Shown in pieces: positions 13,770 through 30,241 of a DNA stretch of 64,000 bases. A model generated the notes under the pieces. The model saw only the letters and a program-made list of their open reading frames with translations. It had not been told where the DNA came from and ran no database searches. Source of the stretch: Ostreococcus lucimarinus (taxonomy: Eukaryota); the NCBI GenBank assembly GCA_000092065.1, contig CP000587.1; one strand, given 5' to 3'. Each line of letters starts with the position of its first letter. Within the stretch, counting starts at the first letter, position 1. A program made the position numbers and the translations under genes.

Positions 13770-14620
13770 GTTAGTTTAAGAGCGCGACGTAGACGTAGAA
13801 ATTATTACATTATTTACTACAGACTCGTGTAACCGCCATTCGCGCGCAACCTCGCCTCGAACTTGGTCGCACCGCGGAGTCGAACCGCGAGACGAGCGCC
13901 CTTCGGCGCCGCCGACCCTCTTGCGACGGGACCCTCCGGCTCGCCTTCTGAGGCGGCCTTCACAGGGAAAATATATACGGGTGATCTAAGGAAGTAGAAA
14001 ACTAACCAATAATTGCCGCCGTGCAGTGCGGTTCGTTCGTTCGTTTTGTTTGCCTATGTTCTGAAAAACGTTGGAGGACAAATTTTGATCTACCGCAGGA
14101 TACCGTGTTTTGTTTTGCGTGAGGCTGAAAGATGGTCGAAACATGCATGTTGTGATCTGGAGGATCGAGCGCGTAAACGAGTAAACAAAAGAGGTTCACG
14201 TAAACCTGATCAAGAGCGCCCATAATAAATGCTATCGAAGCAAGCATATCAACATGATGGATGACTGCGGAGAATAAATCCAAGCGAAGCGCGCGAAGCG
14301 CGTGAATGATAAAGAACAAACAGACAAACTTTTTCTCGCACTATCGGCGAAGGAGGATCCAAAATAACGCATCGGCGATCTACGAATGAAACGACGCGAC
14401 GCTTGAAAACACTCAAAAAGCAAACCTCGTCCAAAGCGCGACGAAACGTGCGAAAAACGCGCGCGCGTCCGCGTTCGCGGTGACATTCTTTCTGCGCGTC
14501 GCGATCAAACGTACCGCCCGAGGGCGAACAACGGTAAACGGTAAACATAGAGTGCGCGTACGCTATCTTCGTCGCGGAAATCGCGCGCCGCGCGCCTGCG
14601 TTCGCGTGCGTGCACGAGTT

Positions 14621-14634
14621 TTTTTTTTTTTCGC
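14621..14634. repeat. Poly(T) tract, T14
   Basis: 'gagttttttttttttttcg' inside the AT-rich intergenic island. Confidence 0.8.
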
Positions 14635-15001
14635 CCTAACGAATGAATGAATGCGTGCGTGATCGATTCACGCGAGATCTCCCGCCGTCCCGCTCGCGCG
14701 CGCCTTTCCCTGCCCCCCGCGCGAGCGCTCGAGCGCCGCCTCGCCCTCGCGCGCGCTCGGAGCGTCGACGCGCGCGCGACGCATCGCGCGCGCGTCGAGC
14801 TGCCGCGCCGATCCCTTCGCCCGCGGGGTGCCCTCGGGGTCGCGCATATTCGGACATTCGGACGATTTACGACGCACGCCGCGCTCCCGCGATGGCGTCG
14901 AAGACGTCCGCAGTATGGCGCGCACCGCCGCGCGCGTCCTCGCGTCGCCGACGCCGTCGCCGCGCCGCGCGCGCGCGCCGCGCGGTGCGACGCGCGCCGC
15001 G

Positions 15002-17351: not shown

Positions 17352-18017
17352 ATGTCGCCGGCGCTCGCGCCGTTCGCCGGCGCGCCGTTCGCGCGCGCGC
17401 GCCGTCCCGCGCCGACGCGTCGCGCGTCGCGCGCGCGCGCCAGAGAGAGCGACGACGCCCGCGCGTCGCTGTCGTCGCTCGACGCGATTTTATCCACCGA
17501 CGCCGACCGCGCGTCCTCGAGCGACGGCGCGTCGGCGCGCGACGACGCGCCGAGCGACGCCGCGACGCCGACTCGAGTGGTCTCGCGCGCGGTCGACGTC
17601 GCGCTCGACGACGACGTCGTCGCGCGGGTCGAGCTCGAGGTGCGCTCGGCGACGTCGCGGTTGACGCGCGCGACGATGAAATCGCCGCTCGGCATCGTCT
17701 TCGAAGACGTCGACGGCGACATCGCGGTGGTCGAGTTTTACGACGAGAGCGATCTGGGACCGCGCGGGCGCGGGATCAGGGAGGGAGACGTGTTGCGCGC
17801 GACGTCGGCGATGATTCCGGAGATGCGGTATCCAAAGTTGAACGTGATAGGCGGCGGCGTCGGGCGACCGGGATGGCGTCGGGTGATGTACACGTGCGCG
17901 TCGTCGCAGGACGGTAACTTGGACGACGTGACGTTCGATCAGGCGATGAAAGCGATCGGGTCGAACGCCAAGGCGGGAAATTACGACGTCGAGCTCGTGT
18001 TTGAACGCCGCGCGTGA
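17352..18017 (+). CDS. PDZ-like domain protein with a Ser/Ala/Arg-rich N-terminal presequence (organelle-targeted?)
   Basis: 'LGIVFEDVDGDIAVVEF...GIREGDVLRATS' resembles a PDZ fold. The N-terminus 'MSPALAPFAGAPFARARRPAPTRRASRARA' looks like a transit peptide. Confidence 0.45.
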   Translation: MSPALAPFAGAPFARARRPAPTRRASRARARESDDARASLSSLDAILSTDADRASSSDGASARDDAPSDAATPTRVVSRAVDVALDDDVVARVELEVRSATSRLTRATMKSPLGIVFEDVDGDIAVVEFYDESDLGPRGRGIREGDVLRATSAMIPEMRYPKLNVIGGGVGRPGWRRVMYTCASSQDGNLDDVTFDQAMKAIGSNAKAGNYDVELVFERRA

Positions 18018-18347
18018 ACGCTCGCCGCGCGATGACGCGCGCGAATAAAGACAGAGAGCGCAAGCAGGAAAAAGGGACCGGCGTCGAAACCGACCGCGCG
18101 TCCTCGCGCGCGCCCCGTAGAGCCACTTTAGCGTTGTCACGAACTTTCCTTTGCGTTTCGCGCGATCGCGCGCCGTCGCGAGCGCGCCGTCGCGCGCGGC
18201 TTCCGCGCGCGCGCGCGGAACCAGGCACCCCCCTCGTCCCCGAGATCTCGGCCCTCGCGTGCCGCACTCGTCGTCGCGCGCGACGACGCGCCCGAGCGCG
18301 CGCGCGCTTGGAGCGAAAGAAACAACGTCCCGCGCGTCGTCATCGCC

Positions 18348-21300
18348 ATGGACTTCGACGACTGGTTCGCGAACGACGACGAGTTGCGTCGGATGTCCGT
18401 CGAGGCGGATGCCGCGCGCACGGCGCGGGATGACGCCGAACGCGCGCGCGGCGCGCGCGCGAGCGCGAGCGCGGAGACCGCGGTGGCGATCGATGACGTC
18501 GCGCACACCCCGGGGGGCGAATTCGAGGCGATGGAACGAGAACTCGAACAAATCGTCGACGAGGAGCGCAGATCCGGATTCGAAAGCGACGACGACGACG
18601 ACGGCGGATTCGACGATGATTTGATCGACTACGATGACGAGGACGAGGATGAGGACGACGACGATGATTTCGACGATGCGTTCGTCACGGACGAGTATTC
18701 GTTTTCGAGCGACTCGCACTCCTCGATCGATGAGACGCAGGAGGGTGAAGTGCAGCAAACGCAAGAGGCGTTCGAGACGGTCGTCCCGGAGACGCAAGTA
18801 TTGATTTCGCAGCAGGCGAACGATGATGTCGTCATCATTCCGGACGAAGACGCGGACGAGATTCCACCGGGCGTGAACGACGCGATCGAAGTGCGCGATG
18901 CGAACGCGCTGCCGACTGAGGATTTAATCCGGTTGCTCAAGGAACGTATGAGGTCTGGCGAAGCGAGGGAGATCGAGGCGAGGTTGGAGAGTGAAGGCTT
19001 CGTTCGGGCGGATCGCGATGTACCCCGTGCTACGCCAGCGCAAACGGAGCCGATACGTCGGCGCGGACGTGGCCCCGACCGTAGACCACGAAAGAGGAGA
19101 CGCCGCGTCGTCGAGCCTGGGCAACGGACGCTTCACGACGTTGGCTTCGGGACGGGCGCTGAAAACGGCGCCGAAAGGGCTGTCGACGATGACGACGGTG
19201 ACATCGTCGTAGAAGGTGTGTCGCGTCACATCCCACGACTCGATCGACCTCCCGTGCCATCGACTGTTGATGAGCTTTACGATGTTTGGGAGCGCACGGC
19301 GAAGGATCTCGTTCCGCGAGACGCATCTATTTACAGTAATTTTCGGTATGCGTTCGGAGACGAAAGCGAACGCGGCGAGCGTTATCGCGAGAAAGAAATG
19401 AAGGATATCGGAAATCTGCTGTTCAAATATAAAGCGGACAAAAAGCCTGGACAGCACGCAATGCTCAAAGGCCGCGAACGCGAGGGTAAGACGGGCGCGT
19501 TGTTTTCCATAACTCTCGCAGCCTTACTCTTGAACATCCGCGTCGTCATTCTTTGCGCGCCTTTGAAGGTTGCGCCGATCTGCGACATGGTACGAAAGCT
19601 CAGACGTGCTGGTTTCGGGCGTATGTACGACACGCAGCACACGCTCGGACCGGTGCAAGCCAAAAGAAATAAGATCCCCAGCGCTCAAATGGGACAAATA
19701 TACGTCGCCTCTCTTTGTACGTTGGGAGATTTGAAAAAGGTGAAGAACTGGATCAACTGTCAGAAACGAGACGGTCAGTTGACGTTGACGCTCATGGATG
19801 AATGCGACGAGCTCACTCAAGGAAAGGGGCACAGTACAATAGAGATTGAGCACAGAGTAGACCCAGACACGTTTGCGCAGTACATCCGTCAAGAAAGACG
19901 CGGTGAAGATTATGAAGACGTGCTCGATGTACCAAGCGATCGAAAGGCGAGAGGGAAGAATTTCAAAGCGCAAATCGCAAAGGCATCCCAATATTTTCGA
20001 CAGCACGTGCATCCCGAGACGCAAGTGATCGCGTGCTCTGCGACGCTGAGCGGCTACGTCTTGAATCCTATTGGCGTCTTCCGTAACGATTTGCCGACGA
20101 GTATTTTCAAAGTGTTTCCAAAGGATGGATACTGTGGCATCGAAAGATTCAAAATCCCCGAAGGCTGCGAGCTCGAACACGACGGCAATTTATCCTTGGA
20201 GGCTTTCAGTGAGTCGAACGCTGTGGGAAAGTTACTACAACGCTTTTATACGCGAAGAAACGAATGCGATGGGCAACGTCTCCAACCTTTGCCAGGGAGC
20301 TCAGCGACCGAAATCGCACTTCGTGGTATGCTGTTTTTATCGTGCACCCCGAAGGTGAACGTGCACGGCGGCGTGCATGATCTCGCAAAAACGGTGACAC
20401 AAATGGTTGATTCTTGGGGCACTGGCATCAGTTCACAGAAGACTCTATTTATTTGCTACGTTGGATCGCCGCGGGTACTTTTCGCGGGTAGTTGGCAGTC
20501 GATGCCCAGTGGATATTCGTTTGAAGCTATTTACAACGAAACCGCGTCTCGTGTGAAAAAAGAGAAATTTGCGAACGTTTCCCTTCGAAAAGACGAGCCA
20601 TTCAGCAAAGTTTGCACGCACGTCGTCCTCATCGGCTATAATCTCACGCGTCGCGCGATGACGGCGGCGTTCACTCCGAAAGACGAACCTGGAGTACTGT
20701 GCAAAATCCAATATGGCATCATCACTGCGCCGAAGACAACGGCAGTCGATACCACGAGCCAACGAGTGAATCGTCCATCTCACGAGTTCGCGCAGCACGT
20801 GGTGCCTGAAAACTATAGCGTCGACGTCGCGATGTGGCCTCAAACTTTGGAGGTGTGCCAACGTTATCGAGAGATGGAGGACAAAATGGTGGAAGAACAA
20901 CGTGGGTCGCCGAAAATCCACGCCGAGTTCCGCCAAGCGATCGACGTCTATCAACAAGGTCTCGACAGCCACATAGTTTCCAAGAGGCGCATTCCTCTCG
21001 ATTGCATGAGCAACACCGGTCGCAAAGAGCGATATCGCCAGCAATCGGCCGTGGATCCGGACGAAATCGAACATCTGAAGGCCTTCAAAGTGTGGCTAGA
21101 GAATCACGAATACCAGCCAGGCAAAAAGTTGCACCAAGAATCAGTGAGGGTCTACTACGCAATCATAAGACGGTATTTCGTGAGCAACGCTGACATTGGA
21201 GACATTATTAAAGAAGTGAAAGATTGGGTAGAACGTCATCCAGAAGCCTCGGACTCTGAGGAAAACGAATGCAATCCGCGTAGCGCAGCTAGCGAGCGCA

Positions 21301-21395
21301 CTAGCGAGCGCACTAGCGAGCGCACTAGCGAGCGCTTCCTTGCGCTCGCAAGGAAGCATTTCCTAAGTTTTTGGGAAGATAGATCTCGTGGGTAG
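18348..21395 (+). CDS. Large protein with an acidic N-terminal third and an SF2-like P-loop NTPase/helicase core; family not recognised
   Basis: Motif I 'GREREGKTGALFS' (GxxxxGKT), motif II 'LMDECDEL' and motif III 'ACSATLSG'. C-terminal (SERT)4 repeat. GC drops to ~50 % from ~19.2 kb onward. Confidence 0.5.
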   Translation: MDFDDWFANDDELRRMSVEADAARTARDDAERARGARASASAETAVAIDDVAHTPGGEFEAMERELEQIVDEERRSGFESDDDDDGGFDDDLIDYDDEDEDEDDDDDFDDAFVTDEYSFSSDSHSSIDETQEGEVQQTQEAFETVVPETQVLISQQANDDVVIIPDEDADEIPPGVNDAIEVRDANALPTEDLIRLLKERMRSGEAREIEARLESEGFVRADRDVPRATPAQTEPIRRRGRGPDRRPRKRRRRVVEPGQRTLHDVGFGTGAENGAERAVDDDDGDIVVEGVSRHIPRLDRPPVPSTVDELYDVWERTAKDLVPRDASIYSNFRYAFGDESERGERYREKEMKDIGNLLFKYKADKKPGQHAMLKGREREGKTGALFSITLAALLLNIRVVILCAPLKVAPICDMVRKLRRAGFGRMYDTQHTLGPVQAKRNKIPSAQMGQIYVASLCTLGDLKKVKNWINCQKRDGQLTLTLMDECDELTQGKGHSTIEIEHRVDPDTFAQYIRQERRGEDYEDVLDVPSDRKARGKNFKAQIAKASQYFRQHVHPETQVIACSATLSGYVLNPIGVFRNDLPTSIFKVFPKDGYCGIERFKIPEGCELEHDGNLSLEAFSESNAVGKLLQRFYTRRNECDGQRLQPLPGSSATEIALRGMLFLSCTPKVNVHGGVHDLAKTVTQMVDSWGTGISSQKTLFICYVGSPRVLFAGSWQSMPSGYSFEAIYNETASRVKKEKFANVSLRKDEPFSKVCTHVVLIGYNLTRRAMTAAFTPKDEPGVLCKIQYGIITAPKTTAVDTTSQRVNRPSHEFAQHVVPENYSVDVAMWPQTLEVCQRYREMEDKMVEEQRGSPKIHAEFRQAIDVYQQGLDSHIVSKRRIPLDCMSNTGRKERYRQQSAVDPDEIEHLKAFKVWLENHEYQPGKKLHQESVRVYYAIIRRYFVSNADIGDIIKEVKDWVERHPEASDSEENECNPRSAASERTSERTSERTSERFLALARKHFLSFWEDRSRG
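21281..21336. repeat. 12-nt tandem repeat (tagcgagcgcac) x ~4 encoding (SERT)n
   Basis: 'ctagcgagcgcactagcgagcgcactagcgagcgcactagcgagcgc' inside the 3' end of the 18348..21395 CDS. Confidence 0.8.
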
Positions 21396-22782: not shown

Positions 22783-23545
22783 GACGCGTCGCGCGGGCGT
22801 GTGTCGAAGCGATGTTTAACGCGTTCAGGGTTTGAGACTCGTCTCGCATTACGCGCCGCTCGCGCGGCGAGCGTCGATATCGTGCGCCCACGCGGACGTC
22901 TTGACGTGCGACGTCGTGGTAAACGTCTTACCGGCCTCACCGCCGACGACGTCCTTATCCTGCGTCGTCGCGCGCCGTCGTCGTCGTCGTCGTCGTCAGT
23001 CGGTCCGTCGGCGCGTCCGTTCGCGTCCCGATTCGCGTCTCGCGTCGTCCAATCCTCGCGCGTTCGCGCGCCCGCGTCGTCGTCCGCGGCGCGCACCTTC
23101 GGCACGTCGTTCCCCTTTCGCGCCTTTGCCTCGCTTTTGGCCCTCGCGACGTCTTCCTCGCGTCGTCGCGCCTCGGCGAGCTCGCGCTTTCCCGCGCGTC
23201 GCGCCCTGTTCTTCTTGTTGTTGCTCCGCGCGTGTCTCGGCAGCGCCGCGGTCGCCGCGCGCGACGCGCTCGACGGCGCTTTCGTCGGCGTTTTTCGCGT
23301 CGTCGCCGGCGCGCCGCCGCGTCCGAGCGCGCGTCGCAGCAGCGCGAACGCGACGGCGCCGACGACCGCCAGCGGCACGAAAAGATTCGTCGACGCCGCG
23401 TCGTCGCGCGTCGTCGCGCGTCGTCGCGACGCGTCCGAGCGCGCGCCGCGAGCGTCGCGTCGCGTCGACGCGCGCGCCATGCGAGCGCGCGGGCGCGCGC
23501 GACGCCGCGCGTCGACGATTCGGTGTCGCACAGTGACGCGCGTCG

Positions 23546-24345
23546 ATGCCGACGCGCGACGGCGACGCCGCGCACGCGCGCGCTCGAGCGCGACCGTACG
23601 CCTCGCTCGAGGGCGACGCGCGCGATTACGCGCGGTGGGCGCGCGCGTGCGCGGCGTCGCGCGGCGACGCGACGACGCGCGACGCGCGAGACGCGCGACG
23701 CGGACCGCTGCGCAGGCGTTTCGACGTCGCGCTCGACGCCCTGCTCGCCGAGCTGCGCGCGCACGAGGACGCGGAGCCGTTCGCCGTGCCGGTGGACGCG
23801 CGGTACGCGCCGGATTACTACGCGGTGATCGAGCGGCCGATCGACGTGGCGACGATGCGCGCGCGCGCCGGCGCGAGCGCGTACGCGAGCAAGGACGCGT
23901 TCGCGGAGGATCTGGCGCTGATGGAGGCGAACGCGGTGGCGTACAACGGCGCGGGGTCGACGGTGGCGAAAATGGCGCGCGCGGTGGTCGGCGCGGGGGA
24001 GGAAATGCTGCGGCACGTGCCGCGGGTGGATTTCGAGACGTGCGAACGCGTGGCGGCGTACGCGGCGCGCGTCGAGCGAGGGGAGACGCTCGAGGGCGAG
24101 GGCGAGAGCGAGAGCGAGAGCGAGAGCGAAGAAACGCGCGAGAACGATGCGGACGAACCGGGAACGAAATCGTGGAGGAAACGGACGCTGGAGACGCGCG
24201 TGCGGCGAGTGCTTCGGGCGAAGGCGCTCGCGGACGCGCCCGTGGGAATGCGACGCGCGTGTCGACCGAGAAGCGCGCGCGGTATGCTCGAGTTCATGCG
24301 CGCGAGCGAAGATCACGTCGATGCATGCGTCGGTGCGCGCGCGTT

Positions 24346-24377
<32 letters not shown>

Positions 24378-24817
24378 TTCCCGAGGACGAAGGTTTCGTC
24401 GCCAACGCCGTGCCGACGCTTCCGAAATATTCCGCCACCGCCGAGTGTGTGAGCGCGGAAGCGCTGGACGACATGATGATGCGGTCGATCGCCGTCATCA
24501 TCGACGCGCGCTCGCGCGTGGGCAAAGCGTCGATCGAGTATTCGATGACGAGCGCCGCCGCGAAGCTGCTTCTCTCCGTCGCCGACGATTTCACCGCTCG
24601 AATCTCCGTGGACGTGGCCAAGGCCCTCGCCGCGCGAGAGCTCGAGCGCAAACGCGAACGCGCGCGCGCCACCGTGAACGCGTCGGGGATCAACGTTCCC
24701 GAAATCGCCCACCGCATCGGCCTCCGCGCCGACGTCGCGCGCGTCGCCGCGCGAGCCATCAAAAAATTTCTCGAGCGCCCGCTCGGTCCGCATCCGCGCT
24801 CGCGCTCGAAAACATAG
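23546..24817 (+). CDS. Bromodomain-containing protein with a C-terminal histone-fold/BTP-like region
   Basis: 'FAVPVDARYAPDYYAVIERPIDVATM...FAEDLALMEANAVAYN' is the canonical bromodomain (FxxPVD...PDYY...P[MI]D...NAxxYN). EG/ES and poly-D repeats are present. Confidence 0.7.
24092..24128. repeat. Hexanucleotide repeat (gagggc)2(gagagc)4 encoding EGEGESESES
   Basis: 'gagggcgagggcgagagcgagagcgagagcgagagc' inside the bromodomain CDS. Confidence 0.75.
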
Positions 24818-25001
24818 TTTCATATCGTTACAGTAGGATATTAGTTTTAGCGTTTTCATTCCACACTAGCGGCGTAGCCTCGAGCGCGCGACCCGTCGCG
24901 CTCGTCGCGCTCGCCTCGCGACGTCTGTCTGTTTCAACTGTCCGTTCGGGTCACCGTCAGTCCGCCGCGCTCGCTCCATCGCGTCCGGCCGCGCTCGCGC
25001 C

Positions 25002-25421
25002 ATGTCGCCGTCCGGGTCGCTCGCGCGCGCCGACTCGGCGTCCTCGAGCCCCCTCGCGAGCGAACGCGCGGATTCCGTGGGCGATTTACCGCGAATTCCC
25101 CTCGGATTCGGCGCCCCGACGCGAAATCACGCGCGCACCGACAGCTCGTGCAGCACCGACGGCTTGATCTCGCGCGACGTCGACGTCGAGCGCGCGCTGG
25201 GTGATTTCGCCGAGACGTCGGACGGCGGCGTCGCGCGCGCGTCGACGTCGCCGCTCGCGCCGCGCGTCTCGCGGGGGAAAGTATCGCGAGCGCTCGCGAG
25301 CGTCGGCGACTACTTCACCGAACGCGCGAACCGACGGTTGAAGTTCGCGGTCGCGATCGCGCTGGTGCTGGCGCTCGTAGTGTTGATCGGGATGCCGCTC
25401 CGAGCGTGGACCAAGGGCTGA
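25002..25421 (+). CDS. Possible small tail-anchored membrane protein (hypothetical)
   Basis: 139-aa ORF ending in a hydrophobic helix 'FAVAIALVLALVVLIGMPL'. No homology recognised, so it may be spurious. Confidence 0.2.
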   Translation: MSPSGSLARADSASSSPLASERADSVGDLPRIPLGFGAPTRNHARTDSSCSTDGLISRDVDVERALGDFAETSDGGVARASTSPLAPRVSRGKVSRALASVGDYFTERANRRLKFAVAIALVLALVVLIGMPLRAWTKG

Positions 25422-26381
25422 GCCGACGACGCGAATCGACGCGCGTCGCCGCGGCTAATAATACCGCGCGCTCGCCGAGTCGCTCGCGACTTTTAACGCG
25501 CGTCTCGCGTCTCGGCGCGCGACGTCGCACCGCTGTAACACCACGCGTTGGATTAGTTTCGAGTTCGACGACGTCCGCGTTCGACGCGTCGCTCGTTCGT
25601 ATGCTACAAATCGCGTCGCTCCGCGCGTCTACGCGTTCGGCCGAAACCCCATCAATCGCGCCGCGCTGCTCTGCGTCGCGTACATCACCCCGAACGCCAG
25701 CCCGAGTCCCCCCATCGTGACCGCCGTCGGCGTTCGCATGCACACCTTCGCCCGCGCGCCGCCGCCGACGATCCATCCCAATCCACCGCCCGCGCTCGCG
25801 CCCAGGAGTACGTCCCGGTAGTCCGTCGCGTTAAAGTTGCTCGCTGCGCGCGCGCGTCGTCCCGACGGCTTCCGTCAGTCTCCCGTCGCGCGTCGCGCGT
25901 CGGTCGTCGACGCGCGAGAACGCATCGACGGTTCGCGCGTCGTCCGTTCGCGTCGTCCGTTCGCGTCGTCGCCGCGCGGCGTCGCCGTCGGTGTCACCGA
26001 TCGACGGTCGCGCGGCGTCGCGCGGCGTCGTCGCGTCGCGCTTTGTCGCGTCGCGCGCACCGACGGCGCCGAAACTCGGCGCGCGATCGACGACGTCGTG
26101 CGTCGGGCGATCGGCGATGACGCCCATGGATTCGCGCGCGTCGACCACTGCGGGCGAAGGTCCGCGCGAAGGATCGATTCGATCGCGCCGCACACGACGT
26201 CGCGGCGACGCGCCGACGACGCGCGCGATCGAATCGGCGCGCGGCGCCGTCGGACGACGACGCGCGCGACGGCGGCGGCGAACGGCGCCGCGCGTCGAGG
26301 GAGGGAGGGATCGATCGCGCGCGCGATTTGAAAGTCGACCTCGCGAAGACGCGGCGCGAGCGCGCGGGCGCGCGGGCGAGG

Positions 26382-27524
26382 ATGACGCAGGGCATGGGGG
26401 TGTCGACGTCGGATCCGTCGTCGCTGCCGCCGCTCGTGGAGGCGAAGAAAGGGACGACGGCGGGGTGGTTGGGACGGGGACGCGCGAGGGAGGACGCGAG
26501 CGGGACGCGGGACGACGACGACGGGACGAAGGGGGAAGCGAAGGCGAAGGAGGCGCGCGAGGGACGGTACGAGCGGGTGAATCCGATGAATTACGCGTCG
26601 GTGAACGATACGACGAAGCTGCTCGTGTGCGGAGGGATCGCGGGGGCGTTTAGTAAGTCGTGCACGGCGCCGTTGGCGAGGTTGACGATTTTGAACCAGT
26701 TGCAGGGGACGAACGCGGTGCCGGGGTGGGAGGCCGCGGCGGGACGAGCGTCGATCGTGAGCTCGCTGCGACGGATCGTCGCCACGGAGGGAGTGACGGC
26801 GCTTTGGAAGGGGAACGGGGTGACGATCATACATCGCCTGCCGTACAGCGCCGTCAACTTTTACGCGTACGAGCAAATCATGAACGTGCTGGATAAAGTG
26901 ATGACGACGTTACACTTCGACGAGAACGGCGACCCAGCGGTGGGGGCGTTTAAGTGGGGGTTCGCGCAGCGCTTGCTCGCGGGCGGGAGCGCGGGCTGCA
27001 TCGCGTGCACGCTGACGTATCCCTTGGATTTGATTCGCACGCGCCTCGCCGCGCAGACGACGGTCAAGCATTACAACGGCATCGCCGACGCGTTCATGAA
27101 GATTTTGCGCGATGAAGGCACGAAAGGCTTGTACCGCGGTCTGAAACCGACGCTGATCGGCGTCGGGCCGAACTTGGCGCTCAACTTTGCGGCGTACGAG
27201 ACGTTGAGAAATCACTTGCAATCGCTCGATCACGGGATGTATCCGATGGCGGTCGATTTGGCGAGCGGGAGCGCGGCCGCCGTCGTGAGCGCCACGGCGA
27301 CTTTCCCCATCGATCTCGTGCGACGCCGAATGCAGATGCGCGACGCCGTGCGAGGTGACAGTTTTGTCGGTGTATTTAAGCGCGTGTTGGCGAAGGAGGG
27401 CGTCACGGGACTGTACCGCGGCATCCTCCCTGAATTCGCCAAAGTCGCGCCGGGCGTCGCGATCACGTACACGTCGTACGCGTTTCTCAAGCGACTGGCT
27501 GGGGTGGACACGGGTCGTCTTTGA
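26382..27524 (+). CDS. Mitochondrial carrier family protein (SLC25; CoA/adenine-nucleotide carrier-like)
   Basis: Three Mito_carr repeats. 'PLARLTILNQ', 'PLDLIRTRLAAQ' and 'PIDLVRRRMQM' are Px[DE]xx[KR] signatures. Six TM helices. Confidence 0.8.
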   Translation: MTQGMGVSTSDPSSLPPLVEAKKGTTAGWLGRGRAREDASGTRDDDDGTKGEAKAKEAREGRYERVNPMNYASVNDTTKLLVCGGIAGAFSKSCTAPLARLTILNQLQGTNAVPGWEAAAGRASIVSSLRRIVATEGVTALWKGNGVTIIHRLPYSAVNFYAYEQIMNVLDKVMTTLHFDENGDPAVGAFKWGFAQRLLAGGSAGCIACTLTYPLDLIRTRLAAQTTVKHYNGIADAFMKILRDEGTKGLYRGLKPTLIGVGPNLALNFAAYETLRNHLQSLDHGMYPMAVDLASGSAAAVVSATATFPIDLVRRRMQMRDAVRGDSFVGVFKRVLAKEGVTGLYRGILPEFAKVAPGVAITYTSYAFLKRLAGVDTGRL

Positions 27525-27589
27525 ATCGCGCGCACGCTGGAGAAAGTAGTTGAATCACGTTGTATTAGGAGAGAAAGTAGTCTGCGAAA

Positions 27590-28063
27590 TCACGTCGTCG
27601 TCGTATTCGTCTCGGCTGTCGGCCACACGTACTTGGGCTTGATCGGCGCCGCGCGTTCGATGATTTCCACCATGAGATCCGTCGGAAGCGCCCCGAGATC
27701 GCGTCCGTCGCCCTCGCGTTCGAGTCTCTTGTGCGCCAACAAAAACGCGCGCGTCGCGAGTTTAAAAGCGTCGCAGAACGTCGAATGATTCTCGATCGAC
27801 CACGTCTCCATCGTCGGTCGGCGAATCTCCACCTCCTCCCTCTTCGTCCAGATTTGATCCCACTCGTCGTAATCCATCTCATCCTCGCGCGCGACGACGC
27901 GATAGATGAACGAATCGTTCACCACGCATCGCTGCCTCGATCGCGAGCACGAAAGAAACGTCCACGGATGCGAATCGTACGTCCTCTGCTCGCGCTTCTC
28001 GCCCGGCTGCAACACGTTGTACGCCTTCACCCGTCCATCGTACGCCAGCCAATACGCCCGCAC
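27590..28063 (-). CDS. Hypothetical protein
   Basis: 157-aa ORF with ordinary amino-acid composition. No recognised domain. Confidence 0.35.
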   Translation of the reverse strand: MRAYWLAYDGRVKAYNVLQPGEKREQRTYDSHPWTFLSCSRSRQRCVVNDSFIYRVVAREDEMDYDEWDQIWTKREEVEIRRPTMETWSIENHSTFCDAFKLATRAFLLAHKRLEREGDGRDLGALPTDLMVEIIERAAPIKPKYVWPTAETNTTTT

Positions 28064-28537
28064 GGGTTCGTCCGTCCTGTTCGAGCGTCGATCGTGGATT
28101 CGTCAGTCCCGTCGTCGATTCGCCGTCCCGTCGTCGATTCGCCGTCTCGTCGCGCCGCGCGTCGTACACGTTCATAAACGTCACGCGAACCGCCCGGTCG
28201 CTCCGAACGCTCCGCATCGTCTCGGGAGCGACTTCTCGCGTTTTTTCGAGGAGCTCTCGAAGCGGATCGACCGCCGTCGCCTCCTCGACGCTCGTCGGCC
28301 ACTCCGACGCGCCGGTTCGAGTTCTGCGAAATTTGGACGGCAGACACGACGGCGCGTCGCGCGCGACCGCGTCCGCTCGACGCCTCCGCGCGACGCGCGT
28401 CGCGCGCAGCAAAAAACATCCGATCGCGCGCGCGAATCGCGCGGCGAGCATCGCGATCGCGCGCGCGACGGCTCCAATCATGCGCGCGGGCGAGTGCGGC
28501 GCGCTCTCGGACGAACCGTCGGCACTTCTCGACGCGC

Positions 28538-30241
28538 ATGGACGCGCGCGAGGCGGTCGCGCGCCTCGCGCCGACGCTCGCGATGCTCGCGGCGATCGTC
28601 GCGGCGCGCGCACGGGCGCTGACGCGCGCGATGTACGGCGCGATGACGACGAACGCGCTCGTGAGCGGTGGGTTGATGTTCAGCCTTTCGCGTTACTTCG
28701 CGAGCGTCGGGCGCGCGCTGGCGCGGCGCGCGGTCGTCGCGGTCGATCGCGCGGTGTTCATGACGTTCGTCGTCGCGCGAGGGGCGTACGAGGACGACGA
28801 CGACGAGTACGAGGACGTGCGCGCGTTCGTGGAGGAATACTTTTCGCGCGAGTCGTCGACGTGCGAGTTTCGCGCGAGGTACGCGTACGAAGGATTTCAA
28901 TCCGCGCGGGCGAGCGAGGCGCGAAAGGGTGACTCCGGAACGCCGCAGGATCGATCGCTGCGCGGCGTCAGACTGGATGCGCTCGTGGGGGGAAGCGCGA
29001 TTCGAACGCGCGTCGACGGGAAGTCGGTGCGCGTCGCGCATCGATCCGGGAACGCTTCGAGACGCGGCGACGGCGACGAGACGGATGGTTCCTGGTACGA
29101 CGACTTCGTGCGTCAGCGAGAGAGGAACGCGCCGGGACGCGGGGACGGAGACTCGTTGGGCGATCAGTTTGAGGTGAAGATGTATCGGCTTTTCCAATCC
29201 GAGGCTCGCATGAAGGAGCGCTTGTTCGAGTTGATGAAGAGGGGTCGGGCCGCGAAAAAGAAGCACCAACAACAGCGCTGCAGCGAGCACACGTCTGTGT
29301 ACATGCCGAAGACGGTGACGCAGTATCACGAGACGACGACGCCGGGACGTCAACCGTCTCACGTGCAACGAGTTCAACAACAGTGGATCTTGCGCGAGAA
29401 ACCGAGTCGACCTCTAGAAACGGTGGTGCTGCCTCCGGGCGCTAGGGAACGGCTCGTCGCCGATGTCGACGATTTCTTGTCGAGCGAGCGTTGGTACGTC
29501 AATCGCGGTTTGCCGTGGCATCGCGGTTACCTACTTCACGGTCTCCCCGGTACTGGGAAAACGTCGCTCGTGTTCGCGCTCGCCGGGCACTTTAAACTGC
29601 CTCTGTACACCATTCGGCTTAGCGATGAACGATTGGACGATGAAGGCTTACACTGGCTCTTCTCGAACACGCAGAGACGATCGATCATTCTCCTGGACGA
29701 CGTCGACGCGCCCGGCGCGAACGCGGTATTTCGAGAGCCGGCGCCGGAGAGCACGGGAAATTTGTCCGTTTCGTCGACGCTTTCTTTGCTCGATGGAGTC
29801 ACCGCCGTCGACGGTCGCTTGATTTTCCTGACGTGTCGAGATAAGTTGTCGTTAAACCCAACGCTCATTCGACCCGGACGCTTCGACGTCCTCATGCGCT
29901 TCGACGCGCCCAGCAAAGAGCAAATCGCGGCGTATTACAAGCATTTCTACGCCGAGTGCGACGTCGCCGACGACGAGCTCTGGAAAATGGCGAACTCTTT
30001 CGCGGCGATCGCCGTCGACGTGGACAAGATGCCTAAATCCATGGCCGCGCTCCAAGCACTGTTCATCGCGAACAAGGACGACCCAGCCGCCGCTTTGGAG
30101 GCGATGCAAAGCCGAGTGACGCAGCAAAAATCCAAGCGCGTCTCCGCGCTCGGCGGCGCGCTCACGCGAAGTCGCAGCGGAGGCGAGACGGAGCAGCGCG
30201 ACGCGGTCACCAAGCTCGAAACCATCGAAGCGAACGAGTGA
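28538..30241 (+). CDS. BCS1: BCS1-like mitochondrial AAA-ATPase chaperone
   Basis: BCS1 N-terminal TM/import domain, then the AAA core with 'GYLLHGLPGTGKTS', 'IILLDDVDA' and 'NPTLIRPGRFD'. Confidence 0.8.
   Translation: MDAREAVARLAPTLAMLAAIVAARARALTRAMYGAMTTNALVSGGLMFSLSRYFASVGRALARRAVVAVDRAVFMTFVVARGAYEDDDDEYEDVRAFVEEYFSRESSTCEFRARYAYEGFQSARASEARKGDSGTPQDRSLRGVRLDALVGGSAIRTRVDGKSVRVAHRSGNASRRGDGDETDGSWYDDFVRQRERNAPGRGDGDSLGDQFEVKMYRLFQSEARMKERLFELMKRGRAAKKKHQQQRCSEHTSVYMPKTVTQYHETTTPGRQPSHVQRVQQQWILREKPSRPLETVVLPPGARERLVADVDDFLSSERWYVNRGLPWHRGYLLHGLPGTGKTSLVFALAGHFKLPLYTIRLSDERLDDEGLHWLFSNTQRRSIILLDDVDAPGANAVFREPAPESTGNLSVSSTLSLLDGVTAVDGRLIFLTCRDKLSLNPTLIRPGRFDVLMRFDAPSKEQIAAYYKHFYAECDVADDELWKMANSFAAIAVDVDKMPKSMAALQALFIANKDDPAAALEAMQSRVTQQKSKRVSALGGALTRSRSGGETEQRDAVTKLETIEANE

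What the first reader, a model, noticed from the sequence alone, without database searches (positions are those of the whole stretch)
18348..21395. 1,015-aa orphan ORF with SF2 helicase-like motifs I-III and a GC shift from ~70 % to ~50 %
The ORF starts with ~280 acidic, GC-rich codons. From ~19.25 kb onward, GC falls to ~50 % and the protein shows a Walker A 'GREREGKTGALFS', a DExD-like 'LMDECDEL' and an 'ACSATLSG' SAT motif. No canonical C-terminal helicase motifs or known accessory domains are recognisable. It ends in a (SERT)4 repeat encoded by a 12-nt tandem array. Composition and content differ from the surrounding housekeeping genes. Candidates are a laterally acquired (virus- or mobile-element-derived) NTPase or a fast-evolving lineage-specific gene. 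The acidic N-terminus may be a separate exon or an artefact of an open GC-rich frame.
Basis: partly seen in the sequence, partly recalled or inferred. Interest (0 to 1): 0.6.

Follow-up and report, generated by a model that had tools for sequence, protein, structure and literature searches.

The report
Hypervariable algal helicase with integrase-like tail
The ORF is a real, conserved but uncharacterised helicase-like gene of Ostreococcus and related tiny green algae, not an orphan or a recent viral import, and its DNA-binding tail is unusually variable between otherwise near-identical wild genomes.

Summary
A 1,015-aa ORF lies at 18348-21395 (+). It has an acidic N-terminus, Walker A, DECDE and SAT motifs, a 12-nt (SERT)4 array and a GC drop (core GC 51%, GC3 0.57; neighbours' GC3 0.83-0.87).

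The window is Ostreococcus lucimarinus CCE9901. The gene has syntenic orthologues in other Ostreococcus lineages and about 50 full-length relatives (44-56% identity) on Mamiellophyceae-like contigs, one of them an MMETSP transcript. None was found in IMG/VR. The N-terminus is conserved, so it is not an artefact.

The new result is that nucleotide divergence among wild haplotypes is confined to this gene. Flanks differ by 0-0.5%, the gene body by 1-3%, and a C-terminal cassette by about 26%, which exceeds the inter-lineage divergence of the flanking genes (4-7%). Other species groups also show tail swapping: cores 96-99% identical carry tails only 40-65% identical.

My best reading is a nuclear DNA motor whose recognition module is under diversifying or balancing selection, possibly in a genetic conflict. 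The function itself is inferred, not shown.

The parts
18348..21395 (+). Complete intron-less ORF of 1,015 aa plus stop codon: an uncharacterised SF2 helicase-like protein
   Evidence: ORF listing. Full-length homologues cover 100% of it. The locus is syntenic in L001, L014, L018 and L019.
18348..19214 (+). Acidic N-terminal region, probably disordered (residues 1-289; 30% D+E, pI 4.1)
   Evidence: Composition. The acidic character and the start are conserved in homologues. GC3 is 0.73. Disorder is inferred from composition; this region was not modelled.
18732..18812 (+). S/TQ cluster (ETQ129-131, TQ138-139, ETQ148-150, SQ154-155). T130/Q131 are nearly invariant in the family
   Evidence: Reading these as ATM/ATR-type phosphorylation sites is inference only.
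19089..19106 (+). Basic run RKRRRR (residues 248-253) inside a 45% K+R stretch; NLS-like
   Evidence: Similar basic runs lie at the aligned position in many relatives. Nuclear targeting is inferred.
19122..19148 (+). QRTLHDVGF (residues 259-267): a degenerate copy of a PIP-box-like motif Q-x-x-[LIM]-x-x-[FY]-[hydrophobic]
   Evidence: The regex matched 43 of 50 relatives with a full N-terminus (my count from the output), about 110 residues before Walker A. Q259 is nearly invariant. The window copy does not match the regex.
19458..20063 (+). RecA1 domain of the SF2 motor (residues ~371-572)
19470..19508 (+). Motif I / Walker A, GREREGKTGALFS. LKGREREGK and A384 are invariant
19791..19814 (+). 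Motif II, LMDECDEL. D484-E485-C486-D487-E488 are invariant
20031..20054 (+). Motif III, ACSATLSG. A562-C-S-A-T-L567 and G569 are invariant
20313..20834 (+). RecA2 domain (residues ~656-829). It includes LRGMLF (658-663), GYNLTRRAMTAAF (763-775, motif V-like) and SQRVNRPSH (804-812, motif VI-like Q-R-x-x-R)
21069..21392 (+). C-terminal helical domain (residues ~908-1015) with the fold of the tyrosine-recombinase core-binding (phage-integrase SAM-like) domain. No catalytic domain follows it
21121..21350 (+). Hypervariable cassette within the C-terminal domain. There are two deep allele classes in the O. lucimarinus population, plus recombinants
   Evidence: 26.5% nucleotide divergence between window and L001, against 0% in the 76-nt spacer and the TraB gene just downstream. 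Allele alignment.
21282..21335 (+). 12-nt tandem array (AGCGCACTAGCG, 4.4 copies) encoding (SERT)4. Copy number varies among class-A alleles
   Evidence: TRF and sequence. 3 units in L018/P0198, 1 unit in L026, none in class B.

Best explanation
The ORF is a functional, vertically inherited gene of Ostreococcus lucimarinus. It belongs to a small, unnamed protein family restricted to Mamiellophyceae-like picoalgae, with a few more distant relatives.

Shown: the protein consists of an acidic N-terminal region, a complete two-RecA SF2 ATPase motor with motifs I, II, III and a VI-like motif intact, and a C-terminal domain with the fold of the core-binding domain of tyrosine recombinases but no recombinase catalytic domain.

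Inferred mechanism: the basic run takes the protein to the nucleus. The integrase-like tail docks it on DNA or on a particular DNA structure. The SF2 motor then uses ATP to translocate on or remodel that DNA.

Shown: in natural populations, sequence divergence is concentrated in this one gene and peaks in a ~230-nt cassette of the tail. Tails are exchanged between nearly identical cores in several species.

Inferred: the recognition module is under diversifying or balancing selection. That is expected for a protein engaged with a fast-evolving partner such as prasinovirus DNA or proteins, selfish DNA or rapidly changing chromosomal sequences. On this reading it is a conflict or defence-type DNA motor and not a routine housekeeping helicase.

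For: Real gene. Syntenic orthologues exist. One relative is a complete MMETSP transcript. All wild alleles listed in full length are intact ORFs of 996-1007 aa. piN/piS is 0.25 over codons 725-924 in 8 haplotypes.

Hypervariability. Flanks are 99.6-99.9% identical and the gene 96.1%. Per region, flanks differ by 0-0.5%, the core by 0.2-3.2%, and the tail by 16-17.5% between allele classes. The cassette differs by 26.5% within the species, while flanking genes differ by 4-7% between lineages. piS is 0.085, against 0.0008 for TraB, 0.008 for the 221-aa gene and 0 for bZIP. dN/dS is 0.92 for residues 901-1000 and 0.1-0.5 across codons 301-900, i.e. the core. Recombinant alleles occur. In other species groups, core/tail identities are 99.1%/39.6%, 97.2%/42.9%, 96.2%/53.6% and 94.6%/48.3%, and some pairs are discordant in the other direction. 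The exact TraB and TerC proteins recur on 203 and 193 contigs, whereas each target allele appears on only 1-4 contigs.

Conflict flavour, all weak. OTU deubiquitinase domains are gained or lost at either end in 9 of 55 relatives. The P0074 gene overlaps a C5 DNA methylase gene. The best viral structural matches are uncharacterised algal giant-virus proteins.

Against: dN/dS in the cassette is about 0.9, not clearly above 1, so relaxed constraint on the tail is not excluded. Elevated dS could also reflect a local mutation or gene-conversion process and not selection.

The divergence profile is asymmetric. It rises slowly 5' to 3' and then drops abruptly after the stop codon. Simple linked balancing selection does not predict that shape.

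The conserved TQ cluster and PIP-like motif point towards replication or repair housekeeping. Metagenome assemblies can be strain chimeras, although the same allele classes recur in independent assemblies and in the finished CCE9901 genome.
Confidence: 0.45

Rival explanations
1. It is a housekeeping replication or repair helicase specific to this algal lineage. It is recruited to forks or lesions through a PIP-like motif and regulated by ATM/ATR-type phosphorylation of the TQ cluster. The variable tail is simply a weakly constrained appendage.
For: A PIP-box-like motif Q-x-x-[LIM]-x-x-[FY]-[hydrophobic] is conserved inside an otherwise unconserved acidic region in 43 of 50 relatives, directly after a basic run. 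T130/Q131 are nearly invariant and there are 3-7 S/TQ sites in the N-terminus. The gene is single-copy, syntenic and surrounded by housekeeping genes. The core is under purifying selection. Between Ostreococcus lineages its protein identity (80%) lies within the neighbours' range of 78-97%.
Against: The window's own motif is degenerate (QRTLHDVGF) and fails the regex. Relaxed constraint cannot raise synonymous divergence 10-100-fold over the flanks. It also cannot produce tail swapping between 96-99% identical cores. Housekeeping helicases are normally widespread, but this family has only 84 representatives in 1.84 billion proteins. GC3 is the lowest in the window.
Confidence: 0.25
2. The divergence island is neutral. 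A gene-bound mutational or gene-conversion process, for example conversion from unsampled donor copies or locus-specific hypermutation, generates the diversity and the low GC3 without any selection on specificity.
For: dS as well as dN is raised. It rises monotonically 5' to 3' and stops at the end of the ORF. Low GC3 would fit a locus driven towards the GC-to-AT mutational equilibrium reported for O. tauri (PMC5498103). Repeat copy number is unstable in the cassette.
Against: The derived changes show no strong GC-to-AT bias: 35 against 29 in the window lineage and 22 against 18 in L001. No donor copy was found. All six metagenome hits to the conserved 3' flank lie in the same TraB-adjacent context, and there is only one copy per locus. 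Discrete allele classes with recombinants look like old alleles, not scattered hypermutation. Every allele keeps an intact ORF and the CB fold.
Confidence: 0.15
3. It is a laterally acquired viral (prasinovirus or other giant-virus) or transposon gene, active or recently domesticated.
For: GC and GC3 are low compared with neighbours. The CB/SAM-like domain and the OTU domain are common in mobile elements and viruses (my own knowledge). The best BFVD structural matches are uncharacterised proteins of algal giant viruses, for example M1I2R9 at E 1.5e-11 and Heterosigma akashiwo virus 01 at 5.9e-10, both with TM about 0.4.
Against: The locus is the same in two Ostreococcus lineages and in every wild haplotype sampled. 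Another species also has a fixed single locus across 8 shown places (24 contigs) from different metagenomes. No terminal repeats were found, there is a single copy per locus, and the gene sits tightly among host genes with spacers of 330 and 76 nt. No sequence relative exists in IMG/VR and there is no PHROG hit. The GC3 deficit is shared by relatives in other genomes. An ancient mobile-element origin of the family is not excluded.
Confidence: 0.07
4. It is a non-functional open frame or decaying pseudogene whose ORF is kept open by chance.
For: Pfam finds no family. The exact protein is not in the 15-billion-protein collection. Codon usage is unusual.
Against: Intact ORFs of about 1,000 aa occur in dozens of lineages, with 100+ invariant residues including all ATPase motifs. 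The AlphaFold model is confident. piN/piS is 0.25 in the core. A relative is transcribed, as shown by an MMETSP transcript.
Confidence: 0.02

Closest known systems
Superfamily 2 helicases/translocases in general (structural neighbours: HCV NS3, Mfd, DEAH-box DHX37/Prp22, Snf2-type Ino80/CSB/SNF2H, type I restriction HsdR, T4 UvsW)
   Different: No subfamily stands out. Sequence identity is 7-15%, and Pfam DEAD scores 15.4 bits against a cut-off of 26, with no Helicase_C, SNF2 or ResIII hit. The motif variants are family-specific (LKGREREGKTGA, GYNLTRRAMTAAF). Accessory domains of the named subfamilies, such as OB/HA2, Snf2 protrusions or a nuclease, were not detected.
Core-binding (phage-integrase SAM-like) domain of tyrosine recombinases (XerC/XerD/XerA, IntI4, lambda Int, Brujita Int)
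   Different: In recombinases the domain is N-terminal and is followed by the catalytic domain with its active-site tyrosine. Here it is C-terminal to a helicase and the protein ends after it. The Pfam scores stay below the curated cut-offs, and the window's own tail gives no Pfam hit.
Motor-plus-variable-recognition-module enzymes of prokaryotic restriction systems (type I HsdR/HsdS target-recognition domain shuffling, type ISP/III)
   Same: The working logic is alike: a conserved SF2 motor coupled to a DNA-recognition module that exists as divergent, exchangeable cassettes within a population. Distant relatives carry RAMA or sit next to a C5 methylase.
   Different: The window protein and its locus have no methylase, nuclease or specificity subunit. 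There is no PADLOC hit. The gene is eukaryotic and nuclear. Homology is not established, so the comparison is by analogy only.
Low-GC, hypervariable outlier chromosomes of Mamiellales (small outlier chromosome linked to virus resistance; PMC5498103, PMC5082852)
   Same: Lower GC than the rest of the genome, fast evolution and strong between-strain variability.
   Different: This is a single gene embedded in an ordinary, collinear, GC-rich chromosome region. Its variability is allelic (SNPs and cassette swaps) and not presence/absence of large segments.
Uncharacterised SF2-like proteins of algal giant viruses (BFVD: M1I2R9, Heterosigma akashiwo virus 01 A0A1C9C5C9, CeV-01B A0A0N9QIR2)
   Same: These are the best Foldseek matches among viral models, at E 1.5e-11 to 9e-8 and of similar length.
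   Different: TM-scores are only 0.33-0.44 on the query (target-normalised 0.37-0.61) and identity 9-13%. No sequence-level relatives were found in IMG/VR.

Membership tests
Superfamily 2 (SF2) helicase/translocase | Motif I (Walker A, GxxxxGK[TS]) | tested here: met
   GREREGKTG at residues 375-383. G375-K381 are invariant in 30 and in 55 sequences.
Superfamily 2 (SF2) helicase/translocase | Motif II (DExx) and motif III (SAT/TAT) | tested here: met
   D484-E-C-D-E488 and S564-A-T566 are invariant. Distant relatives have DE[CAV]D and TAT.
Superfamily 2 (SF2) helicase/translocase | Two tandem RecA-like domains, the second carrying motif VI arginines | tested here: met
Superfamily 2 (SF2) helicase/translocase | Recognition by curated sequence models (Pfam DEAD/ResIII/SNF2 plus Helicase_C) | tested here: not met
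   DEAD scores 15.4 bits against a cut-off of 26. There is no Helicase_C hit. PDB sequence and profile searches found nothing.
Superfamily 2 (SF2) helicase/translocase | Nucleic-acid-stimulated ATPase or unwinding activity | not testable with these tools
   Requires biochemistry.
DEAD-box / DEAH-box RNA helicases | Q motif, DEAD or DEAH signature, and family accessory domains (HA2/OB for DEAH) | tested here: not met
Tyrosine recombinase (phage integrase family) | Core-binding / SAM-like four-helix DNA-binding domain | tested here: met
Tyrosine recombinase (phage integrase family) | Catalytic domain with the R-K-H-R-[HW]-Y active site | tested here: not met
   The protein ends about 110 residues after the start of the CB-like domain. 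No Phage_integrase hit was found. It is therefore not a recombinase.
DNA transposon / Helitron-type element gene | Multiple copies, variable insertion sites, terminal repeats or target-site duplications | tested here: not met
   One copy per locus. The context is the same in all haplotypes and across lineages. No terminal inverted repeats flank the ORF. Genome-wide copy number in CCE9901 could not be tested.
Prasinovirus / giant-virus derived gene | Sequence homologues in viral genomes | tested here: not met
   IMG/VR scans with two alignments found none. PHROGs gave nothing. Only weak fold similarity was seen, with TM about 0.4.
PCNA-interacting (PIP-box) proteins | Q-x-x-[LIM]-x-x-[FY]-[FY] in a disordered region | tested here: inconclusive
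   43 of 50 relatives match a relaxed form in which the last position is any hydrophobic residue. The window copy (QRTLHDVGF) does not match. Binding was not tested.
OTU deubiquitinase fusion proteins | OTU domain (PF02338) | tested here: not met
   Absent from the window protein. Present N- and/or C-terminally in 9 of 55 relatives.
Known anti-phage defence helicases (PADLOC models) | A match to a defence-system protein model | tested here: not met
   The only match is mad8 at E 0.028.

The most novel reading that the evidence does not exclude
This may be a eukaryotic innate-immunity or genome-defence motor built like a restriction-system translocase. A conserved nuclear SF2 ATPase would carry an exchangeable, integrase-derived DNA-recognition cassette, with allelic forms older than the species maintained by balancing selection and shuffled by recombination. 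Its targets would be prasinovirus or selfish DNA. An alternative, PRDM9-like version is that the cassette directs the motor to fast-evolving chromosomal sites.
Probability: 0.25. Interest if true: 0.85.

Novelty: new variant of a known kind. Interest (0 to 1): 0.66.

Why it matters
Ostreococcus and its relatives are among the most abundant marine eukaryotes, and they coexist with lytic giant viruses. So far their known virus-resistance variability has been tied to a whole outlier chromosome.

This locus shows a single gene in an ordinary chromosome region with outlier-like composition. Its diversity within a species exceeds the divergence of its flanking genes between Ostreococcus lineages, and the protein architecture (SF2 motor plus integrase core-binding domain, sometimes OTU) is not matched by any curated family model in the libraries searched here (Pfam, PADLOC, PHROGs), and the source databases give it no name beyond 'hypothetical protein'.

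If the variable tail is a specificity module, this is a compact and genetically tractable candidate for studying host-virus or host-selfish-DNA coevolution in picoplankton, and possibly a eukaryotic analogue of recognition-domain shuffling in restriction systems. More modestly, it defines a new helicase family and a useful hypervariable marker for strain-level population genomics. It is also a known place where metagenome assemblies break.

Tried and rejected
- Sequence searches for a named family all failed. These were Pfam on the protein and on 30 relatives, PDB by phmmer and by three profiles, PADLOC and PHROGs.
- Foldseek against AFDB50 was unavailable.
- IMG/VR scans with the close-family alignment and with the distant-family alignment found no relatives.
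- The last two large protein searches, with P0074 and with alignment A4, returned only P0074 and added nothing.
- The search for terminal repeats around the ORF found only GC-rich low-complexity matches.
- A RIP-like or deamination explanation for the low GC was rejected because derived substitutions show no strong GC-to-AT bias.
- An intron or separate exon near 19.2 kb was rejected because the ORF aligns continuously with its orthologues.
- Silent donor cassettes were rejected as far as testable: there is one copy per locus, and all six metagenome matches to the conserved 3' flank are in the same genomic context.
- Mating-type idiomorphs were considered and set aside. The region has normal GC and collinearity, and other species show three or more tail classes.
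- tRNA and Rfam scans of the window found nothing.
- Literature searches found no description of this family. The O. tauri population-genomics paper does not mention such a gene.
Full report
**1. The observation**

The ORF lies at 18348..21395 on the + strand and encodes 1,015 aa. All quoted features are present at the stated places:
- Walker A GREREGKTGALFS, residues 375-387
- LMDECDEL, residues 482-489
- ACSATLSG, residues 562-569
- SERTSERTSERTSERF, residues 982-997

The SERT repeat is encoded by a 12-nt array at 21282-21335, with 4.4 copies at 97% match. Residues 1-290 are 30% Asp+Glu with pI 4.1.

The GC drop is real but milder than '70% to 50%'. The N-terminal part has GC 0.62 and GC3 0.73. 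The core has GC 0.51 and GC3 0.57. The four neighbouring genes have GC3 0.83-0.87. The ORF has the lowest GC3 of 31 long ORFs in the window. Blocks of other long genes reach 0.62-0.63, so it is an extreme of the distribution and not a separate class.

**2. Organism and orthology**

The adjacent TraB-like protein is identical to XP_001418828.1 of Ostreococcus lucimarinus CCE9901, which identifies the source of the window. The exact 1,015-aa product is not in the protein collection.

The gene is nevertheless not an orphan. Fifty-five homologues were found, most about 1,000 aa long. Identities to the window protein are:

| Homologue | Identity | Note |
|---|---|---|
| P0001 | 92% | syntenic locus on a 116-kb TARA contig |
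| P0002 | 80% | syntenic locus in a second Ostreococcus lineage |
| P0003 | 67% | |
| the rest | 44-56% | compact, gene-dense, Mamiellophyceae-like contigs with different neighbours |

The syntenic locus reads adh_short, bZIP, a 221-aa gene, the target, TraB-like, and a bromodomain gene. In the second lineage the neighbours are 78-97% identical at protein level and the target is 80%. One relative is a complete MMETSP transcript. In another species the gene sits in one fixed context in the 8 places shown (24 contigs from different metagenomes).

An exhaustive profile search of 1.84 billion representatives found only 84 hits. These include a few distant full-length relatives that keep the same motifs. 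Two IMG/VR scans found none. No terminal repeats flank the ORF and there is one copy per locus. Homologues in other genomes also have lower GC3 than their neighbours, so the composition is an old trait of the family.

Recent lateral acquisition and a mobile element are therefore not supported. 'Fast-evolving lineage-specific gene' is supported.

**3. Anatomy**

N-terminus. The alignment shows that the N-terminal start, the acidic tract, a nearly invariant TQ (T130/Q131) and the basic run followed by a nearly invariant Q259 are conserved in one continuous ORF. The N-terminus is therefore genuine. The basic run RKRRRR (residues 248-253) is NLS-like. It is followed in 43 of 50 relatives by Q-x-x-[LIM]-x-x-[FY]-[hydrophobic], about 110 residues before Walker A. 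This looks like a PIP box, but it is degenerate in the window copy (QRTLHDVGF).

Fusions and contexts in relatives. Nine relatives carry OTU deubiquitinase domains at the N- and/or C-terminus. The gene for relative P0074 overlaps a C5 DNA methylase gene in convergent orientation.

**4. The unexpected part: a divergence island**

The window and the TARA contig L001 are 99.6-99.9% identical in the flanks but 96.1% across the gene. In 200-nt bins, mismatches are 0-0.5% outside 18.0-21.4 kb, mostly 0.5-6.5% inside, and 14-21% at 21.0-21.4 kb. They return to 0% in the 76-nt spacer and the whole TraB gene.

Four haplotypes were compared: CCE9901 and three independent assemblies.

| Region | Nucleotide divergence |
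|---|---|
| Flanks | 0-0.5% |
| N-terminal part | 0.9-3% |
| Core | 0.2-3.2% |
| Tail, between allele classes | 16-17.5% |
| Tail, within a class | 1-1.4% |

In the 230-nt cassette (21121-21350) the two classes differ by 26.5%. That is as much as either differs from the other Ostreococcus lineage (24-28%), whereas the flanking genes differ between lineages by only 4-7%.

Synonymous diversity over codons 725-924 in eight haplotypes is 0.085. The corresponding values are 0.0008 for TraB, 0.008 for the 221-aa gene and 0 for bZIP. piN/piS is 0.25, so the core is constrained. Between the window and L001, dN/dS is 0.1-0.5 across codons 301-900 (the core) and 0.92 for residues 901-1000.

Both lineages carry derived changes, without a strong GC-to-AT bias. 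Wild alleles include clear recombinants between the classes. The window's class also occurs in nature, with 3 or 1 SERT units instead of 4. The exact TraB and TerC proteins recur on 203 and 193 contigs, while each target allele occurs on only 1-4. Several metagenome contigs end inside or at the edge of the gene.

The same pattern recurs in other species groups:

| Pair | Core identity | Tail identity |
|---|---|---|
| P0008 / P0010 | 99.1% | 39.6% |
| P0006 / P0011 | 97.2% | 42.9% |
| P0025 / P0031 | 96.2% | 53.6% |
| P0026 / P0044 | 94.6% | 48.3% |
| P0044 / P0048 (reverse discordance) | 81% | 87.5% |

Tail hypervariability and cassette exchange are therefore properties of the family, not of one strain.

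**5. Explanation**

Shown: this is a conserved, constrained gene, transcribed in at least one relative, that encodes an SF2 motor with an integrase-type core-binding tail. The tail is a hypervariable, recombining cassette.

Inferred: the protein is nuclear, binds DNA through the tail and uses ATP to translocate on it or remodel it. The diversity reflects diversifying or balancing selection on recognition, as in proteins engaged in genetic conflict with viruses, selfish DNA or fast-evolving chromosomal sequence.

Weak supporting hints are the sporadic OTU fusions, the RAMA and methylase associations in distant relatives, and structural similarity to uncharacterised algal giant-virus proteins. 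The low-GC, hypervariable small outlier chromosome linked to virus resistance in these algae is a further parallel (PMC5498103; PMC5082852, listed).

Rival explanations are:
- A lineage-specific replication or repair helicase, suggested by the PIP-like motif and TQ cluster, with a loosely constrained tail.
- A neutral, gene-bound mutation or conversion process.
- Viral or transposon origin.
- A pseudogene.

Each of the last three is argued against by specific results listed under the rival explanations.

One feature remains unexplained. The island is asymmetric: dS climbs gradually from 5' to 3' and collapses within 100 bp of the stop codon. Simple linked balancing selection does not predict this.

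**6. Comparison and novelty**

The protein works like an SF2 DNA motor with an appended recognition domain. It is a member of SF2 by fold and motifs but belongs to no named subfamily. It shares a domain with tyrosine recombinases but is not one, because the catalytic domain is absent.

The closest analogy in operating logic is prokaryotic restriction enzymes with shuffled target-recognition domains. No homology to them is shown. No curated family model in the libraries I searched (Pfam, PADLOC, PHROGs) matches the family, and the source databases give it no name beyond 'hypothetical protein'. I found no paper describing it. I rate it a new variant of a known kind.

**7. Verdict**

Interest is 0.66. 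The gene-confined diversity, older than the species, in an integrase-like tail of an unnamed helicase family is unexpected and directly testable. Its function remains inferred.

Noticed in passing
window 21282-21335; L018 and L026 (same gene): The copy number of the 12-nt SERT-coding repeat varies among natural class-A alleles: 4 units in CCE9901, 3 in L018/P0198 and 1 in L026. The repeat is absent from class-B alleles.
   Followed up: yes
L018 (contig ends 75 nt after the gene), L023 and L027 (contigs start inside the gene tail), L028 (ends just after the stop): Independent metagenome assemblies tend to break at this gene. That fits strain-level hypervariability and makes the locus a practical marker, but also an assembly hazard.
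   Followed up: partly
L021:2023-2748 (-) next to P0074 at L021:21-2063 (+): The gene of a distant family member overlaps, tail to tail by about 40 nt, a gene for a C5 cytosine DNA methyltransferase (PF00145, E 2.7e-19). The contig is only 2.9 kb and its organism is unknown.
   Followed up: partly
P0072 residues 848-951: A distant relative carries a RAMA domain (restriction-enzyme/adenine-methylase-associated, E 1.5e-12) where the rest of the family has the integrase-like tail.
   Followed up: partly
P0025, P0026, P0028, P0029, P0031, P0032, P0036, P0041, P0054: OTU deubiquitinase domains are fused at the N-terminus, the C-terminus or both (P0025). Near-identical cores such as P0044 and P0046 lack them. 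The gain and loss of this module was not explained, and intron or read-through artefacts were not excluded.
   Followed up: partly
window 13770-14915: An unusually long (~1.1 kb) and AT-rich (GC 45-54%) spacer lies between the BT1-transporter-like gene and the adh_short gene, in an otherwise tightly packed 63% GC region. No tRNA or Rfam match was found anywhere in the window.
   Followed up: partly
window 17361-17441, 18159-18217, 18275-18307, 18437-18473: Short (CG)n and GC-rich microsatellite-like tracts lie in and around the 5' region of the target and the upstream 221-aa gene. The 330-nt upstream spacer also differs by 1.8-2.5% between the window and the metagenome haplotypes, although the three metagenome haplotypes differ from each other by only 0-0.7% there.
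   Followed up: no
window 22800-29000 compared with L001 and L019: Downstream flanking DNA shows 0.5-1.2% divergence between haplotypes. This is higher than upstream (0-0.5%) but far below the target gene.
   Followed up: no
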